Part shown: positions 36,101 through 48,477 of the stretch, in pieces
Layout: the number at the start of each line of letters is the position of its first letter
Position numbering within the stretch: the stretch's first letter is position 1
NCBI GenBank assembly: GCA_031835245.2
Contig: JAVKOQ020000010.1
Span: forward strand, 186,001 to 250,000
Length of the DNA stretch: 64,000 nt
Source of the DNA: Balamuthia mandrillaris
Lineage: Eukaryota
Direction: 5' to 3'
The notes under the pieces: generated by a model
Seen by the model: the letters and a program-made list of their open reading frames with translations, nothing else
The model's database searches: none
Told to the model about the DNA's origin: nothing
Made by a program: the position numbers and the translations under genes

Positions 36101-37113
36101 CCATTCCTCAAGAACGAGAAACCACAGTTTGAAGCTTTGATAGAGGTATGTCCTTAACCTTCCATCCCTTCAAGATACACCATCACCCTCAGCGCAAGTG
36201 CTCATCTTTACATTATTTGTTTTAAGACTTTTGAAAAAGAGCAAAAAAAGACAAGCGGCTTGCCTCTCAACTCCTTTTTGATACTGCCTGTACAGCGTGT
36301 TCCTAGATATATGTTGCTAATTCAGGTAAAGGCAACCGTCCTTCATGGCTTAAGCAGACTATTGACAGAAAATCCTTTGCATTTTCATTCATTACCTAGG
36401 AGCTAGCAAAGCATACACCCGCTGACCATCCAGATATGCCCCATGTTGAGCATGCCAAAGAAAAGTTGGGTTTCATCCTTGACGACATTAATCGCAGGTA
36501 AGTGAAATTTTGTTTGTTCCTCTCGCCACCAGCCCTTATTAACATTCAATGTGCGAACTTTCTCACACTTGTGAATTTGTATCCATCAAGCAAATCCAAA
36601 TCAGACAACGTGGAGAAACTGGGGCGGATAGAGGCCATGATAATTGGCTTGGATGAGCTCCCTATGGAAGTATGTTATCTCTTGTGCCTTTAGCTGCCTC
36701 AACCGAGATTTAACTCACGTTTTTCCAATACTCTTCACCTTGTTACGTAGACACTGGCTCACCCTAAACGACGATACATCAAAGAGGGTCCACTCATTTG
36801 GGAAGGAGAAACAGAGGAAGGGCAGGATGCCTATTTCTTCTTATTCAACGATTTTCTCATGTATACACGCCACCGTTCTGAGGAGGAACTGGAAGAGCAA
36901 GAGCCGGACAAGGAGTTTGAGTACATCACCCTGTTGCCCTTAAACTTCATTGAGGACATCCGACCTTGCCAGGATAACGCCCAGGCTTTTGAGGCTGTGC
37001 TAGAAGAGGATGTGGCCACCTTCATCGCACCTTCCTCCCAAGACCGAGACGCATGGCTCAAGGACCTTCGCCACTGTGTCCAAAGCAAAGTCGTCATTCA
37101 ATTCTTTTCGTGA
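33130..37113 (+). CDS. Calponin-homology (three CH domains) RhoGEF (DH)-PH protein, multi-exon
   Basis: CH: FKDGVLLCRLINTLRPG, LKDGVWLCRLINKIKPG, LSDGVHIIRLLELLT; DH: RRMKIAEEVLTTERTYVQSL...LILPVQRVPRY; PH: YFFLFNDFLMYT...DRDAWLKDL. Confidence 0.88.
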
Positions 37114-41098: not shown

Positions 41099-44000
41099 TT
41101 ACTCTTGTAACAAATAAGTTTCGTCGGGAAGAGAGAATAAATAAACGCTACCGTCTTCATTGCCACTGGCCACCATGTCTTCGTTAGGTGTTAACGCAAC
41201 ACTCGAGATAGGATGAGTTGTTTTGATGGCGGCAATTTGAGCGTCCCGCCCTCCTCTGTGGCAATCCCAAAAACGCAAGCATGCATCTTCGCCACCGCTC
41301 ACGATGAAGCCGGTCTTAGTCCACTGACAGCTTTGCACACCACTTTCCTTATGGGTTCCTGTTATTGTTTGGAGGTGATCAACATGAGGCAACAATTGTG
41401 TATGAAATATGAGTCGTTAGGGGTAGCCTACCTCCGTGAGCAAACAGGTGAAGGGGTTCCTCCAATTTGCGAATATCATAGACGAGTATTGTGTCCGCAG
41501 TATCAGAGGAAAGGAAAAACCTGCCACATGGGTCAAACGATATTGTGTTTATATCTTGTTGCCCAGTGTTGATAACAGCGGAGCGGGTATGGCCTCCGTC
41601 CCGCATATCATACTGCCGAATGAGACCTTCCTCCGAACCCACCAAAAACGTGCTTCCTGTTTGGTCAGCCTGCATCATGAAGTATGAGAAAAATACTGCA
41701 GCAGAGGGGGAGAGGAGAAGACCTAAAATTAGTCTTCTTTTCAAGTTAAAACAAAACATACCACTACACAACAAAAGTCTTGAGTTGTTTCCCGTATAGA
41801 TTGTATCTGCATCTGAGCTTCCACATTCCATACCTGGATCTAAACAGTGAGTGGCAAGGCACAGCACATTGGTAGCATATTAGATTGCAATATTCTGGAA
41901 TGGGCGATGCTTACAGAGAAGACATACCTCGGCCTTTCTGTAATATGACCGAGCAATGGCAAGGAGTACGTTGGTATAAGGTGGAGTAGCGAATGTAATA
42001 TCATGCAAGCCAATTGGTCTTGAGGAATACCCTGCCTGAGAATGTAGCTCACAAAGGCAATCACCAGTTTCCATGTTCCACAGGAGCAATGTGCCGTTAT
42101 CGGCACAGGATGCAATGACGGCCTCCCTTTCTGGGTGCAAGGCGACACGGTTCACCGGTGCTGCATGACCCACTTCAGATCCACCTGATAGAATGACAAT
42201 TCTTTAGCAGATAATACGCTTGAAAGCTACGCAAAATATGAAGAACAAGATAATAATAATAATAACCAAGATTGTGCAACAATGAATAGCTCTTTGGATC
42301 CCATACCTATGAACATTGATGAGTATATTACTGAATAGAGCGCATCGGCGGAATCCGAAGTTACAAACCCGAACTATGTGGTCATGGCAGGCCGTTATCA
42401 AAAATGAGCCGGAAAGGGAAAATTGTGTATCGGATATGATGGCAGGAGGGCTATGTCCCTCTAGGACATGTACTTTTTTGCACTTTAAATCATAAACAAG
42501 TGACTCGTTTGGAGGACCTCCAGTACCTACCGCCAGCTGTTTTCTGTTATTCATTCTAGGTTAATTCAAGGAAAAAGACATAAAGGCCAGCAACTACAAA
42601 ATTACAATGCTGAGACATACTGATCAGGATTGGGATTGAACTTTACATCTATAACGGCCAGTGTTGCATATCTGATGGATTAAAAATCACACAAGTGAGT
42701 AAACTCACAAATGAAAGTTCTTGCGAAGACGCGGTGATGGGGTGGGCTAGAGGGCTACAGAAGCGCCCATCCACTTTCCCATCAGCACGCCCCCATATGG
42801 CTCCATCGGGCAACGCCGCAACAGAGGCTCCTAAGGAGTATGTTGCGAGCTCCATTTATATCTCGATCCAGTCGTATCCCACAGTCCCTGCGTCCGCACT
42901 CGAAGATTCGCTCACGCCGGTTGTGTTGCTTCTGTTCGTGAGTCACATGGAGGCACCAGGTGCAAGTCTTGCTGGTCCAGGCCTCCGAACGAATGTAGAC
43001 CTTGGTGCCCCATTCCCTCGCCTTGTGCAGCAACCACTGGCGGAATCGGTAATGTCCCCAGGAATAGAGCATCCTGGCGGTCTTTTTGCCGATCTTCCTC
43101 CGCCGCCTCCCTCGGGTGGCCGTAATGCCCTTCACACCAAAGGGAGGGATGATGATGTGGTCGTAGCGGCGGCACAGGAAGAGGGCCGTCTTGCGGTGAA
43201 AGTCATCGACCAGGTTGGTGACCCTCTTTCTCAGTTTGAGCAGAGCGCGAAGTTTTCTCTTGCGGCGGCTCGGTGGGGAGCGGTCGATTTTGGACTGCAG
43301 GGCGTCGGCATGCTTTCCGAGGCGCCAGATGCGACCAAAGTCGTTGCGTCCAAACTCCCTCACCGTTCTCTCGGTAGGACTATATCCACACAGAAAGGTG
43401 CGAACCCCTGGATCCAAGGCCACGATGCTCCCTTGGTTATCAGGAGCCCGTTCATGATGTTGGATCGGGATCGGCACGCAGAGCCAAAAATGTTGACGCT
43501 TGTCCTTGTGCAGTGTGCAGGTTCGTCTCAGTCGGCCCTTGTCGTCCAACTCCAGGCCTTCTAAAGCGTACGCTACAGGGTCGAACATGGGGTCTATGTG
43601 CTTAACGTGGGGATTCGGCAACCGCCGTCGTCTGGGTGTCCTCTTGCGGGTTTCATTGGCTTCTTTCCAACGCTCGTTCACGTGGAGCTCGTCGGGGTAG
43701 ACGAAGCCCTTCCACCAGTGGACGTAATGTCCGAGGATCTTGATGGACTCGGTGCGGTGGTCCTTTTTGCGCTTGTACTTGATGGAGAAGCGTCGGATAT
43801 GACCCTGCTTCTTGAGCGTCCAGCAGGTGAGGTAATTGCCGTGGAGCTGCTTTACCGCCTCGTGCTTGATGGAGTAGGGGACGTCTTCCAAGTAATCGAA
43901 TATGATTCTAGGTTTAACCACGCAGACGCCCTGCATCCGACTCAGCTTCCACGCCACTCTACTCCTCTTCTTTTCCTCCTCTTCTTCTTTCTCCGTTGTC

Positions 44001-46681
44001 TTGCAGTCTCGAAGAGTGGTGTTCCAGACTTTCCTCGCCCCTCCGAACCAGCGGTTGAGGATCCGGGCTTGTTCCTTGGTGGGCCTCAGACGTATCTTTC
44101 TCGTCTTGAACAGCGTCGGATCTTCCTCCTCCTCTTCGTCGTCGTTTGGATCCTCCTCTGTCGCCCTTTTCGGTTTGCCTCGGTCTCTTTGACGTGCTCG
44201 AGCTGCCTCCTTGGCCAGCTGTATATCGTCTTTGACCGTGGTGTCTACAGACAAAGACGGTAACGAGGGAGAGGAGGTCCTCGGCGAGGACGTTGCTTGG
44301 TTCGGCCTCGTCGTCGTCCTCGTCGTCCGGACGGTGCACCAGGAGACGGGTTCCGCACCTACGGAAGATGTGCTCGACGAGCTCGTAGGCGATCCGACAG
44401 AGGCGGTCTCGGTGGGCAACCACAACCTCCTCGACATGTCCAGCAAGGACTCGCTCCAGAAGGGCGACAAAGTCCTTGCGCTTCCAGTTGATGCCCGAGC
44501 CGATGTCGCTGTAGACCTTGTGCCTCGGGTAGGCTTCTCGCATACGCTCAACTTGATGCTTGAGGTGCTCTCGTTGTCCGTGACTGGAGACTCGACAGTA
44601 GATGGCCTTGATCTTTTCGGTGGCCTCGGGTTCTGGGACCGCGGCGGGGAGGCCAAGAAGCTCTCTAACGTGCTCTGCCGCGTAGCGGCGGTGCCCGCTT
44701 GGGGTGCGGAGGGCCGCCACCTTGCCCTCCGTGTGCCACTTGGCCAGCCCGCTGAGGGAGACGCCATAGCGTTTGATCAGCTTCGTGGGGGCGACGTAGT
44801 GCAGATCTTCGGTGGGTTCTCTGAGTCGTGGGGTAATGGTAGTGGTAGCGTCAATGGTGGTGGTTTGTGACATGTAGGGACTGTGGGATACGACTGGAAA
44901 GAACGGAGCGGTCGCTTAAATAGTTTCCACACGGCCCCGACAACCAAGCATTTGGTGTCAAGGACCGTGAAAACTGCGAAGGAACCCACAGGGGTCGTGT
45001 TGTAATTCGGGAAATAAAACAGTGAAACTTACCTGCTTGTTGAAACCGCCTGAAACTGCTTGAAATGGTTTCGCTGTAGCTGAGATTTTTGCTGTTCATC
45101 GATTAGCGCCTTCAGTAATGGACAGCGGAATGTAAAGAGAAACAAGTAAAACACACCCAAGAAGGATTCCGGCTCCAGTCGTAGCAAAAACGCCGTTTCT
45201 GAACCAAAGGATACCACTTATAACTGGCTGTCACCTCTATTGGAAGAACAGCAGGTCAGAAACGGAAACATAGAAACAAGCGAGATGAATATGGACTAAA
45301 AATAAGTACAGGATGACGTTTGTAATGGCTGCGAATGTATACTTTTTGAGGAGGGTTGGCCAAGGCGAGGAAACCTGTTATCGCTGTTACGATAACGCGC
45401 AACTTCTGGGTAGGAGTTCGGAGTGCCACTATGTGTGTGTTAGAAATAAAATAGGACAACAAAAACATGGAGAAACAACAATTGTTGCTAGGTCACCTTT
45501 CTAGATCCTCAAGATATCTTATGAGGTCCTCCATTGTCCGACCAGGTAATATTTTACAAAGGTGGAGGAGGTTAAGCCGTTCAGATCTGGCAGCTATTCC
45601 TGATGATTTCACGGTAGACTCCTCCTCTGGAGAAAATGGAACGTGCAGGATATCCCCTTCTGCTAGTTCCGGATTGTACACTTTCAGCAGGCGAACGAGG
45701 GCAGAAGCCTTCAGATAAGGGCGTTTAGTCAACTGCCCCGGCTCCAAAAAGTACTGTCGGTACTCCTCCTCACTGGTAGATAATGGGGAAAAAAAGCATA
45801 GGAGCTTAAATAAGGATGTACTGGCGTGTCTCTCTTAATAAATACCTCGTTGAAAAGAACGCCTCTTTCAGTTTTGTAGGCCACCACTCAAGTTCTGTCT
45901 TCAATTCGTCCTTCCGCTGTAACTGCAATTACGATGTAATGAGGACTATGTGTGTGTGAGAGAGAGAAAGTGAGAGGAGACGAACTTCCTCTTGTATCCG
46001 TTGTCTAATACAAGAAACCCGCGGAGAAGGAGCAGGACTAGAATTGGCAACAGCAAGAATTTGAAGCATTGCGTCCAGTTGTGTCAGCATAGAAGCGTAC
46101 GGTTGCTATCCAATAGTGACGGTAATGTGTCAGAAGAAGCACAGTTAAGAAATAGCGAAGTCTGGTACCTTGTCTTCCGGTAGAGACAGTGCAGCATTTT
46201 GAGATAACGTCCGTAATAGAGTGTCTTCTCCCATTTGAACAATCTGGCGTGGGTAAAGCTCGTTCAAGTTTCTTTGCAACGCCTCCAGTCTCTGCTTAAA
46301 GAGTTGCCATTCAGGAGTGAAGGTTTGTTTCTCCTCCTCCTCCTCCCCCTGTTGGTTCTTGTTATTGTTGTTGAGTGGGGTGGCGGTTGGAAGCTGCTGG
46401 TCTTGTTCGGGCCGTTTTCGTTTCTTTCCCTCAGGAGCTTTCTGAGCTGTGAAAGGCCTCGTTTGTGGTGTGGGTCCCGCAGCGCTACCGCTCGCGCAGG
46501 CAGCAGTGAGTGTTTGAAGTGATATTGGCGAGGGGAGTGAGCCCTCCGCGTGGTGGAACGTAGCGTAAGGCTGCTCTTTCAGTGAAGTCTCCGGCTTTTG
46601 CAGCAAGGCTTGCAACCGCGCCAGCTGCTTAACTTGTGCTTGTATTTCATAGAGTCTGCCAAAATAGATCAGAAGACGGCA

Positions 46682-47307: not shown

Positions 47308-48477
47308 ATGCTGTGCTTGAAGGTTCGGTTGGAAGAGGAGGTGCGCAGGTTCTCCGTGCCTCAGGACATTGGCTTCTCGGAGCTTCGCAAGGCCGTTGCC
47401 AACATGTTCTCCGTGGCGCCTGAGCAGAGCCTGGTGCTGCGCTACCTCGACGACGAGCGGGAGGTCTGCACGCTGGGCTCCGACCTGGAGCTGGAGGAGG
47501 CCAAGCGTTTGCTGCCAGTGCTGGGCCTGCCTTTGCGGCTGGAGGTCAGCCTTCGCTCTGCTGCTTCTTCTCAAGTCAGCGCCCCTCAGCAGGAGGAGGA
47601 AGAGGAGGGGCAGGAGCAGCCTCAAGAGAACGAGGAGAGACTAAAAGCACAAGAGATTCCAGAGCCAAACAAGGCACTGGACTCCTCTTTTGTGAAAGGT
47701 TCCCCCCCCCCCCCGCCAGTTGGTTGCCCTTTAAACTAACAAGCGCTTTTCATTATAATAGATGTGACCATCGAGGATGGTGCTCAGGTCTCTGTCGGCT
47801 CCAAGTTCAAGAAAATATGGCGCATAAGAAACTCGGGAAGCCAAGCCTGGCCCGCTGATTGCGTGCTGAAGGTGGTCCACCCTGAGACCATGGACTTGTT
47901 GGGCGGTGGCTCGGGTCAGGTACGCCTTGCCAACGCCGTTCCTCCTGGTCAGGAAATGGACATTGCTGTGCAGCTGGTCGCTGCCTCCAAGCCTGGTTCG
48001 TCCATCCCCCTCCTCCTCACCTTCCCCCTAACAACAACAATTTCCTTGCTTACTCTCCCCCCCCTCCTCCTCTCTTGCGCAATAAAAAAAGGCCGCTATT
48101 GTTGCCATTGGCGGCTGTTCCATGGGGATGAGGCCTTTGGTGCACGCATCTGGTGTGACGTCAATGTAGTTCCTTTGCAAGGCTCCCCTGCTGGTTTGGA
48201 GGTCAGCCAACCCAAACAACAAAAGGAACAGCCCAAGGAACAACCCAAGAAAGAAGAAAAGGAAGTGGCGCAGCAACCGCAAACAGAGGATACCAAGCCC
48301 AGTGACCCCAAGCAACCAGAGCAGGCGCAGGCAGTGACAGCGCCGCCCGCCAAGTGGGCAAAGCAGCTGCAGGTGCTCGCTGAGATGGGCTTCCACCAAA
48401 GCGATACGGTGGTGCCCTTGCTTGATAACTATGACGGCGATGTGCAGCGCACTCTTGAGCACCTCTTGGGCCTTTAA
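47308..48477 (+). CDS. NBR1/p62-like selective autophagy receptor (PB1 - FW/NBR1 - UBA)
   Basis: PB1 LKVRLEEEVRRF...LRYLDDEREVCTL; FW DVTIEDG...FKKIWRIRNSGSQAWP...HWRL...FGARIWCDVNV; UBA LQVLAEMGF...YDGDVQRTLEHLL. Confidence 0.85.

What the first reader, a model, noticed from the sequence alone, without database searches (positions are those of the whole stretch)
42672..45032. IS607/Fanzor2 transposon that may itself be a spliceosomal intron (eukaryotic IStron analogue)
Seen: on the minus strand the host WD40 exon ends ...TCAACAAGCAG, the 2361-bp insert begins GTAAGT and ends ...TACTCAC-N-AATCCATCAG, and the next exon begins ATATGCAACACTG. Removing the insert gives an in-frame WD40 peptide (AVSTSR-YATLAVIDVKFNP). 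The intron is over 20 times longer than typical neighbouring introns. It is almost entirely tnpA+fanzor, with only 159 nt before the TnpA ATG and 110 nt after the Fanzor stop. CAG sits at both junctions. Established: IS607 serine recombinases insert via a short (2-nt) core shared by target and element end. Bacterial IS605/IS607 IStrons hide insertions through group I self-splicing. Inference: if the core here is AG, an element starting GTAAGT and ending AG would be removed cleanly by the spliceosome after any sense insertion at an exonic (C)AG. That would make it an autonomous, RNA-guided, intron-generating element. The alternative is an ordinary insertion into a pre-existing short intron, since AG|GT is also common at normal splice sites.
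Basis: partly seen in the sequence, partly recalled or inferred. Interest (0 to 1): 0.92.

Follow-up and report, generated by a model that had tools for sequence, protein, structure and literature searches.

The report
RNA-guided transposon that builds spliceosomal introns
In an amoeba, a mobile DNA element carrying a serine recombinase and a Fanzor nuclease gene begins and ends exactly at splice signals and sits in an exon where another strain has no intron, so it likely hides as a spliceosomal intron and would be a new kind of intron-making transposon.

Summary
The 2361-bp stretch is the whole element. A genomic run of another strain joins 42671 to 45033 exactly, so its empty allele has no intron. 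Other copies end at the same CAG (13 flank contigs in that run) and start GCAG|GTAAGT with three further flanks. A near-identical copy interrupts conserved RICTOR coding sequence in sense, with no gap on removal. A 93-nt intron in a RhoGEF gene of this window has both element ends. TnpA and Fanzor2 catalytic motifs are intact, and a perfect 23-bp inverted repeat could loop out 2 kb of the RNA. NCBI names give the host as Balamuthia mandrillaris. Not shown: splicing of the full element in a carrier strain. One carrier RNA-like contig runs unspliced into the element, and an in-frame stop lies upstream in carrier transcripts. Orientation bias was not tested fairly; no whole genome was held. Verdict: most likely an autonomous IS607/Fanzor2 introner, a spliceosomal counterpart of bacterial IStrons; my literature searches found no report of one.

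The parts
42672..45032 (-). Whole IS607/Fanzor2 element, coextensive with a predicted GT-AG intron (2361 nt); no target duplication beyond the shared (C)AG
   Evidence: Empty-allele joint 42671->45033 in genomic run X13 at depth 53.5, within that run's flank depth of 42-79 in bins near the site; ends from other copies
45027..45032 (-). Left end = 5' splice site GTAAGT; this allele has a left end 10 nt shorter than other copies and than the same locus in sample S2
   Evidence: Loose ends behind 45022 in 4 of 4 runs, and two insertions in the X11 contig at this locus
45033..45036 (-). Target motif GCAG (exon end; predicted TAM and recombination core)
   Evidence: GCAG precedes the left end here, in three further flanks and at 36494-36497
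44876..44898 (-). 5' arm of a perfect 23-bp inverted repeat, in the leader just before the TnpA ATG
   Evidence: 0 of 500 leader shuffles exceed 12 bp
43959..44873 (-). TnpA, IS607-type serine recombinase (N-terminal MerR-like HTH, YCRVSS catalytic motif), 304 aa
   Evidence: solved IS607-family TnpA hits
42782..44767 (-). Fanzor2 ORF (661 aa from the only in-frame upstream ATG, overlapping TnpA in the +1 frame; domain-bearing part 42782-44248); DPG, alternative Glu six residues before the zinc finger, RuvC-III Asp
   Evidence: best solved nuclease hit is the mimivirus TnpB-like protein L79, 9b0l
42867..42889 (-). 3' arm of the 23-bp inverted repeat, inside the zinc-finger/RuvC-III codons
42672..42860 (-). 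Predicted omegaRNA scaffold region, which also carries the predicted branch point and the 3' splice site
   Evidence: Fold of 42655-42860: z -2.49, 3 of 200 shuffles as stable, terminal stem closing just before the AG; no Rfam match; boundary inferred from known TnpB/Fanzor anatomy
42695..42699 (-). Predicted branch-point motif CTCAC, 28 nt from the 3' end
   Evidence: similar motifs in 8 of 9 host introns
42672..42674 (-). Right end = 3' splice site CAG
   Evidence: Loose ends before 42672/42671/42670 in 4 of 4 runs
42652..42671 (-). Predicted guide (first about 20 nt of the downstream exon); would match the empty allele next to GCAG
   Evidence: Inference from TnpB/Fanzor anatomy (PMC10711439, PMC10530073 passages)
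45033..45091 (-). Upstream host exon half (WD40-repeat gene)
   Evidence: RNA-like contigs X9, X5
42621..42671 (-). Downstream host exon half
   Evidence: Joint 42543-42621 in X12 and X17
36498..36590 (+). 93-nt intron in a RhoGEF gene carrying both element ends (after GCAG, starts GTAAGTGAAATTT, ends ATCCATCAAG): candidate old non-autonomous copy
   Evidence: Best of 9,421 other AG-ending 60-mers in the window against the right end (score 42; mean 14, sd 3.8; 99.9th percentile 33); in-frame join; RhoGEF Pfam in 3 upstream exons

Best explanation
This is an IS607-type transposon with a Fanzor2 gene whose two ends are a 5' splice site (GTAAGT) and a predicted branch point plus 3' splice site (CAG), which sits after GCAG in host exons, and which is likely removed from pre-mRNA by the host spliceosome, making it a likely autonomous, RNA-guided intron generator. 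Steps: (1) Shown: the ends coincide with splice sites, the empty allele is intron-less, there are many copies plus short deleted derivatives, and insertions in coding sequence are precise. (2) Inferred from IS607 biochemistry: TnpA excises a double-stranded circle and integrates it by crossover at a 2-nt core; here the core is predicted to be AG rather than the GG of characterised members, so any sense insertion at exonic GCAG yields AG|GTAAGT...CAG|, a perfect intron. (3) Inferred: the 23-bp leader/3' helix loops out about 2 kb so that a spliceosome used to 60-90-nt introns can pair the ends. (4) Inferred: element transcripts run through the right end into the exon, giving an omegaRNA whose guide directs Fanzor to cut empty alleles at a GCAG TAM and re-copy the element. 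(5) Inferred: short non-autonomous copies with the same ends decay into ordinary-sized introns such as the one at 36498-36590.
For: Empty allele: X13 joins 42671 to 45033, skipping 2361, at depth 53.5; X13 is genomic by its behaviour, since it skips 0 of the 6 host introns listed and has contigs running across introns. Right end: loose ends in X13 at 42672 (8 contigs), 42671 (3) and 42670 (2), also X12 (2+2), X15 (1+1) and X17 (6 reads). Left end: 4 of 4 runs show copies reading GCAG|GTAAGTGAAATT/TC with 3 distinct flanks. Five NCBI accessions of near-identical TnpA-Fanzor models plus one 75% relative. P0122: an element inside RICTOR; host residues 40-190 and 894-1060 align to human RICTOR 666-815 and 816-995; the model reads straight from host Gln into the left-end peptide VSEISFFCF; an X15 contig joins the right-end CAG directly to the codons YLQETGFVDS (the last two translations by eye). 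The right end of a second copy sits sense inside the RICTOR_M domain of the same model. Short derivative: joint 42760->44977 at depth 63.4 in X13. RhoGEF mini-intron. Intact catalytic motifs. 23-bp helix: present in the whole-element MFE, duplex -47.2 kcal/mol; shortens the 5' splice site to branch point path from 2336 to 306 steps alone, 35 in the full MFE. X9 (RNA-like, same sample as X1) has a spliced host contig that stops matching exactly at 45033 with one further unmatched letter, and no cover at 45026 (suggestive only).
Against: No read or contig from a shown carrier spans the spliced junction. The 3 junction reads in X17 probably come from an empty allele (only 4 of 147 reads 99% alike; shares 42486 T>C with X13). 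X12 (RNA-like, holds near-identical element contigs) shows no 42671-45033 joint among the 15 of 24 joints listed. X5 contig 14 (depth 20.6) runs from spliced upstream exons unspliced into the element; contigs drop rarer forms, so this shows retention, not absence of splicing. The dominant upstream joint 45310/45236 in X9 and X5 creates an in-frame TAG 46 codons before the element, so this carrier allele may be non-functional and need no rescue. The junction peptide was not a significant WD40 blade (22 of 300 shuffles scored as well). The element has many internal pyrimidine-rich AGs (17 besides the true end). Long inverted repeats in a similar arrangement also occur in 3 of 94 distant relatives (14-20 bp, two on viral contigs), so the helix need not serve splicing. 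The RICTOR evidence rests on a computed protein model and one short flank; its DNA was not seen, and the insertion could be heterozygous. Antisense and intergenic copies were not searched for.
Confidence: 0.75

Rival explanations
1. A real IS607/Fanzor2 family whose ends resemble splice sites and which targets GCAG, but whose full-length copies are spliced poorly or not at all; only the short derivatives work as introns, and long copies in exons are damaging alleles tolerated by heterozygosity or polyploidy.
For: Unspliced run-through in X5; no junction in X12; in-frame TAG upstream in carrier RNA; host introns only 62-92 nt; most known introners are non-autonomous (PMC12130899 passages).
Against: Exact splice consensus kept at both ends of full-length copies; two sense copies in RICTOR coding sequence; no empty-allele loose end at 45033 in DNA run X1 (absence in contigs is weak); X9 contig leaves the genomic path exactly at the donor; the 23-bp helix.
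Confidence: 0.18
2. Ordinary insertion into a pre-existing short intron, with the intron-less allele of the other strain made by later precise intron loss.
For: AG|GTAAGT is the common splice consensus; both terminal 30-nt segments are AT-rich like host introns.
Against: The same terminal sequences, up to the exact GT and AG, travel with other copies to unrelated flanks; a pre-existing intron would be unique to this gene.
Confidence: 0.03
3. The splice-site ends belong to a separate small intron-like mobile element (introner of another mechanism) into which, or around which, an IS607 unit was captured; TnpA does not recognise these ends.
For: Several subfamilies share only the terminal about 48 nt of the right end and then diverge (loose ends behind 42710 and 42719); the RhoGEF mini-intron has an unrelated interior.
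Against: No inner IS607 boundary is seen; the predicted omegaRNA stem closes at the terminal AG; shared short ends with unrelated interiors are usual for non-autonomous derivatives; no TSD or TIR, as for IS607.
Confidence: 0.04

Closest known systems
IS607-family IStrons of bacteria (CboIStron; bioRxiv 10.1101/2023.11.20.567912, passages read)
   Same: Serine-recombinase TnpA plus TnpB-type nuclease; what is inserted in DNA matches what would be removed in RNA; splice signals overlap the predicted omegaRNA at the right end.
   Different: There a self-splicing group I ribozyme, GG core and TGGG target; here no Rfam match, only short spliceosomal signals, a (C)AG shared core, a GCAG target and a eukaryotic nuclear host.
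Fanzor2/IS607-like elements of eukaryotes and giant viruses (ACa-1, ISvMimi_1/ApmFNuc; PMC3627910, PMC10711439, PMC10530073, passages and supplement hits)
   Same: TnpA_IS607 next to Fanzor2, DPG and alternative Glu, no TIR or TSD at the ends.
   Different: The deposited ACa-1 runs from aacc... to ...agcg and ISvMimi_1 from ggg... to ...gcgg: no GT...AG ends; ApmFNuc TAM is GGG. None is described as an intron in the passages seen.
Introners (bioRxiv 10.1101/2022.06.06.494994 and PMC12130899, passages read)
   Same: Transposons whose insertion creates a spliceosomal intron without changing mRNA length; families of the AG|gt...ag type; autonomous and non-autonomous members together in some families.
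   Different: Classes listed are TIR DNA, LTR, non-LTR, helitron and tyrosine-recombinase; 'IS607', 'Fanzor' and 'Balamuthia' do not occur in the 12 of 14 supplement files searched, nor 'IS607' or 'Balamuthia' in the main text. About 72% of families were unclassified, so some could be IS607 derivatives. No RNA-guided nuclease is mentioned in the passages seen.
Zipper stems of yeast introns (PMC12350175, passages read)
   Same: [quoted passage not shown]
   Different: Defined there with 42-85 nt of linker; here the 23-bp helix alone leaves about 306 nt, and only further predicted folding shortens it.

Membership tests
IS607 family | Serine-recombinase TnpA with N-terminal HTH and catalytic serine motif | tested here: met
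   MerR-like HTH 32-64, Resolvase 90-215, YCRVSS at 92; IS1535, ISC1904 and ISC1926 TnpA hits
IS607 family | No terminal inverted repeats, no target duplication beyond a short core shared by end and target | tested here: met
   Empty allele joins with 3 shared letters, CAG; no terminal inverted repeat among 9 inverted pairs
IS607 family | GG core as in the characterised members | tested here: not met
   Shared letters are (C)AG; GG is the rule in IS607, ISXfa1 and CboIStron. Read as a variant core; that GG is not family-defining is my judgement
IS607 family | Circular double-stranded intermediate; TnpA activity | not testable with these tools
   No back-joint of right end to left end among the 15 of 24 joints listed; contigs drop rare forms
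Fanzor2 | DPG at RuvC-I, Glu six residues before the first CxxC, Asp after the zinc finger | tested here: met
   Pattern after PMC10711439 matches 452-636, with zinc-finger spacing relaxed; D279, E422, D463 invariant in 30 of 30 aligned sequences
Fanzor2 | Eukaryotic or giant-virus host and IS607 TnpA association | tested here: met
   Intron-rich nuclear context; NCBI names
Fanzor2 | omegaRNA from the right end; TAM-dependent RNA-guided cleavage | not testable with these tools
   Structured right end and RNA-like records running past it are compatible, not proof
Introner | Repeat boundaries coincide with intron boundaries in several copies | tested here: met
Introner | Intron-less orthologous allele | tested here: met
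   X13 joint 42671->45033; one locus only
Introner | Precise removal from mRNA by the spliceosome | tested here: inconclusive
   No junction from a shown carrier; retention in X5; suggestive break in X9
Introner | Enrichment of sense insertions in genes | tested here: inconclusive
   4 of 4 readable contexts sense and coding, found by sense-biased searches; no genome held
IStron | Group I self-splicing ribozyme at the left end | tested here: not met
   0 Rfam matches at E<=1 over 42500-45200; leader only 159 nt. Works like an IStron, is not a member

The most novel reading that the evidence does not exclude
The first RNA-guided homing spliceosomal intron: an IS607/Fanzor2 lineage that changed its recombination core and TAM to (GC)AG, took on spliceosomal ends and an RNA zipper so that even the 2.4-kb autonomous copy is spliced, drives itself into empty alleles with exon-derived guides, and has been seeding ordinary short introns across the amoeba's genes.
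Probability: 0.5. Interest if true: 0.94.

Novelty: new variant of a known kind. Interest (0 to 1): 0.86.

Why it matters
How new spliceosomal introns arise and spread is a long-standing question, and most introner families have no known enzyme. Here the enzyme genes, target motif, empty allele, short derivatives and a likely decayed product intron are all in hand, which makes intron gain traceable copy by copy. It would show that the IStron strategy evolved a second time, with the host spliceosome in place of a ribozyme. It would give introns a drive mechanism through Fanzor, and it suggests a natural role and a new predicted TAM (GCAG) for a Fanzor2.

Tried and rejected
No whole genome held, so no census of copies, orientation or orthologous sites. 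No RNA holder was listed as such; X9, X5 and X12 were judged RNA-like from skipped host introns. The X17 junction reads were rejected as splicing evidence (probably an empty-allele strain). Contig depths were not used as copy numbers or expression levels, although right-end depth in X13 reaches thousands against about 60 in flanks, and in X12 downstream exons (25-63) exceed upstream ones (4-11). Exact right-end patterns: 0 hits in metagenome and viral contigs. Single-protein scan of viral contigs: 0 relatives. Alignment scans gave 80 + 79 distant loci (25-45% identity); 111 of 159 had TnpA beside the nuclease; only 4 of 111 had AG|GTRAG within 400 nt upstream of TnpA, which I read as chance; their ends were not defined, so spread of the trait is untested. 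Left-end peptide against 50% representatives: 2 unrelated repeat-like hits. Right-end peptide: 1 more sense gene model, P0126, of doubtful quality. Mismatch-tolerant motif counts in the window were not above chance by themselves; the mini-intron rests. The N-terminal host exon had no Pfam or Atlas hit; the WD40 part is unassigned to a family. WD40-blade test of the junction inconclusive. Covariation of the 23-bp helix could not be tested (variant tables truncated, 379 rows unseen). Earlier scan findings: nothing in 3 look-ups. Literature: 'Fanzor'+'introner' 0 papers; 'Balamuthia'+'Fanzor' 0; 'Fanzor'+'IS607'+'spliceosomal intron' 2 records, 1 listed, the IStron paper; searches listed nothing describing this. 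The library lacks most subscription papers; 2 of 14 supplement files were unsearched in each of PMC12130899 and PMC3627910, and bioRxiv supplements were not looked at.
Full report
1. Observation. The insert is GC-rich (0.57) against 0.28-0.43 for nine host introns of 62-92 nt, whose boundaries come from joints in RNA-like runs. With the insert removed the host frame runs through the WD40 repeats to the stop; with it retained a stop follows at once. NCBI names on identical proteins give the host as Balamuthia mandrillaris. No whole genome was held.

2. The proteins. TnpA has the IS607 order, HTH first and then the serine-recombinase domain with YCRVSS. The nuclease has the DPG, alternative-Glu and post-zinc-finger Asp signature given for Fanzors in PMC10711439 (passages), invariant in 30 of 30 aligned homologs; the best solved nuclease match is the mimivirus protein in 9b0l. 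The Fanzor frame has no ATG near its first domain; it stays open for 173 codons over TnpA back to an ATG at 44767 (P about 0.02 under synonymous shuffling). Leaky scanning is my guess. The NCBI models instead join TnpA to Fanzor by three different predicted introns.

3. The element is the intron. I laid 8 of the 20 listed runs. Run X13 behaves as genomic DNA: 0 of 6 listed host introns skipped, and contigs that run across introns. It joins 42671 to 45033 at depth 53.5, like its flanks, so its allele has no intron here. Other copies stop matching at the terminal CAG: 8, 3 and 2 contigs in X13 at 42672, 42671 and 42670, the spread expected from chance matches of one or two flank letters, with more in X12, X15 and X17 (50 loose-end rows unseen). 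At the left end all 4 runs show copies that diverge from the window allele at 45022 and read GCAG|GTAAGTGAAAT on the element strand, with three different flanks. The X11 contig carries those 10 extra letters at this very locus, so the window's shorter left end is a derived or allelic variant that still keeps GTAAGT. X13 also holds a short derivative (joint 42760 to 44977), about 150-160 nt long by my count.

4. Other insertion sites. Five accessions encode near-identical TnpA-Fanzor models and one is 75% identical. Model P0122 lies in RICTOR: host residues 40-190 and 894-1060 align with human RICTOR 666-815 and 816-995. Residue 894 comes from the element in that model and host Gln191 would take its place, so removal leaves no gap. 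The model reads from that Gln directly into VSEISFFCFISR, the translation of the left end seen, and an X15 contig joins the right-end CAG to codons for YLQETGFVDS (both translated by eye). The first 42 residues of P0122 are the right-end peptide of another sense copy inside RICTOR_M. In the window itself a RhoGEF gene has a 93-nt in-frame intron after GCAG that starts with the 13 letters of the common left end and is the best match to the right end among 9,421 other AG-ending 60-mers. All 4 readable contexts are sense and coding, but the searches could not have found antisense ones.

5. How a short-intron spliceosome might handle 2.4 kb. A perfect 23-bp inverted repeat links the leader (44876-44898) with the zinc-finger codons (42867-42889); 500 shuffles of the leader reach at most 12 bp. 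It forms in the whole-element fold and cuts the donor-to-branch path from 2336 to 306 steps, 35 with the rest of the predicted fold. Yeast zipper stems are the precedent (PMC12350175 passages), with shorter linkers. Against a splicing role: 3 of 94 distant relatives, two on viral contigs, have 14-20-bp repeats in a similar arrangement, though with the 3' arm behind the ORF. The helix lies at the 5' edge of the predicted omegaRNA, and the branch point and acceptor lie inside it, which would set up the same splice-or-guide conflict described for bacterial IStrons (passages; abstract listing).

6. What is not shown. No record from a shown carrier spans the spliced junction. The three X17 junction reads most likely come from an empty allele. 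X12 lists no such joint. X5 has a contig running unspliced into the element at depth 20.6. X9 has a spliced host contig that stops matching exactly at the donor with one extra letter and no unspliced cover, which fits splicing but is one letter. Contigs drop minor forms, and both lay calls are spent. In X9 and X5 the upstream joint makes an in-frame TAG 46 codons before the element; this allele may be dead, which would remove the need for splicing here. RICTOR and the RhoGEF intron therefore carry more weight than this locus for function.

7. Mechanism. IS607 TnpA recombines over a 2-bp core shared by end and target, GG in the studied members (passages). Here the shared letters are CAG, and only AG in the mini-intron, so an AG core is the simplest reading (inference). 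A sense insertion at exonic GCAG then gives AG|GTAAGT...CAG|, an intron whose removal restores the mRNA exactly. The right-end RNA would take its guide from the next exon and match the empty allele beside a GCAG TAM, the allele found in X13 (inference). I put 0.75 on this, 0.18 on long copies being poorly spliced, and little on a pre-existing intron or a captured unit.

8. Comparison and novelty. It is a member of IS607/Fanzor2 by protein and end anatomy, with a non-GG core; deposited ACa-1 and ISvMimi_1 lack GT...AG ends. It works like an IStron but has no group I ribozyme. It meets two introner criteria, with two left inconclusive. The introner classes in PMC12130899 do not include serine-recombinase elements, and Balamuthia does not appear in the main text or the 12 of 14 supplement files searched. 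Searches found no paper describing a Fanzor or IS607 spliceosomal intron; the library lacks most subscription journals. All papers were seen as search listings, keyword passages or supplement hits, none in full. Verdict: a real feature, a new variant joining two known kinds, interest 0.86.

Noticed in passing
window 36498-36590 (+): 93-nt intron of a RhoGEF (DH-PH) gene with both element ends after GCAG; candidate old non-autonomous copy.
   Followed up: partly
window 45236/45310 joint (-): The dominant RNA joint in X9 and X5 creates an in-frame TAG between two stretches open in the same frame; nearby alternative splice sites would keep the frame. Unexplained.
   Followed up: partly
window 44248-44767 (-): Fanzor frame open for 173 codons over TnpA with no ATG near the domain start; short upstream ORF from an ATG at 44951.
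   Followed up: partly
window 44981, 42719, 42710: Loose ends show subfamilies that share only part of the left region or only the last about 40-48 nt of the right end; one such record is deep in RNA-like runs X5 and X12.
   Followed up: no
P0122 (KAL6067239.1): The RICTOR gene carries two sense copies of the family; the public model wrongly fuses host and element and names it transposase.
   Followed up: partly
P0003 (ENA contig, 1656 bp): Closest Fanzor outside this species' records, 57% identical; its DNA and ends were not available.
   Followed up: no
L059, L132, L138: Distant TnpA-nuclease loci with 20-, 16- and 14-bp inverted repeats between the TnpA leader and the region behind the nuclease gene.
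   Followed up: partly
window 47308-48477 (+): NBR1-like gene (PB1, N_BRCA1_IG, weak UBA) next to the host gene.
   Followed up: no
run X15 (organism B label): Holds contigs 99% alike to this host gene and to the RICTOR flank, so it probably contains the same amoeba under another label.
   Followed up: no
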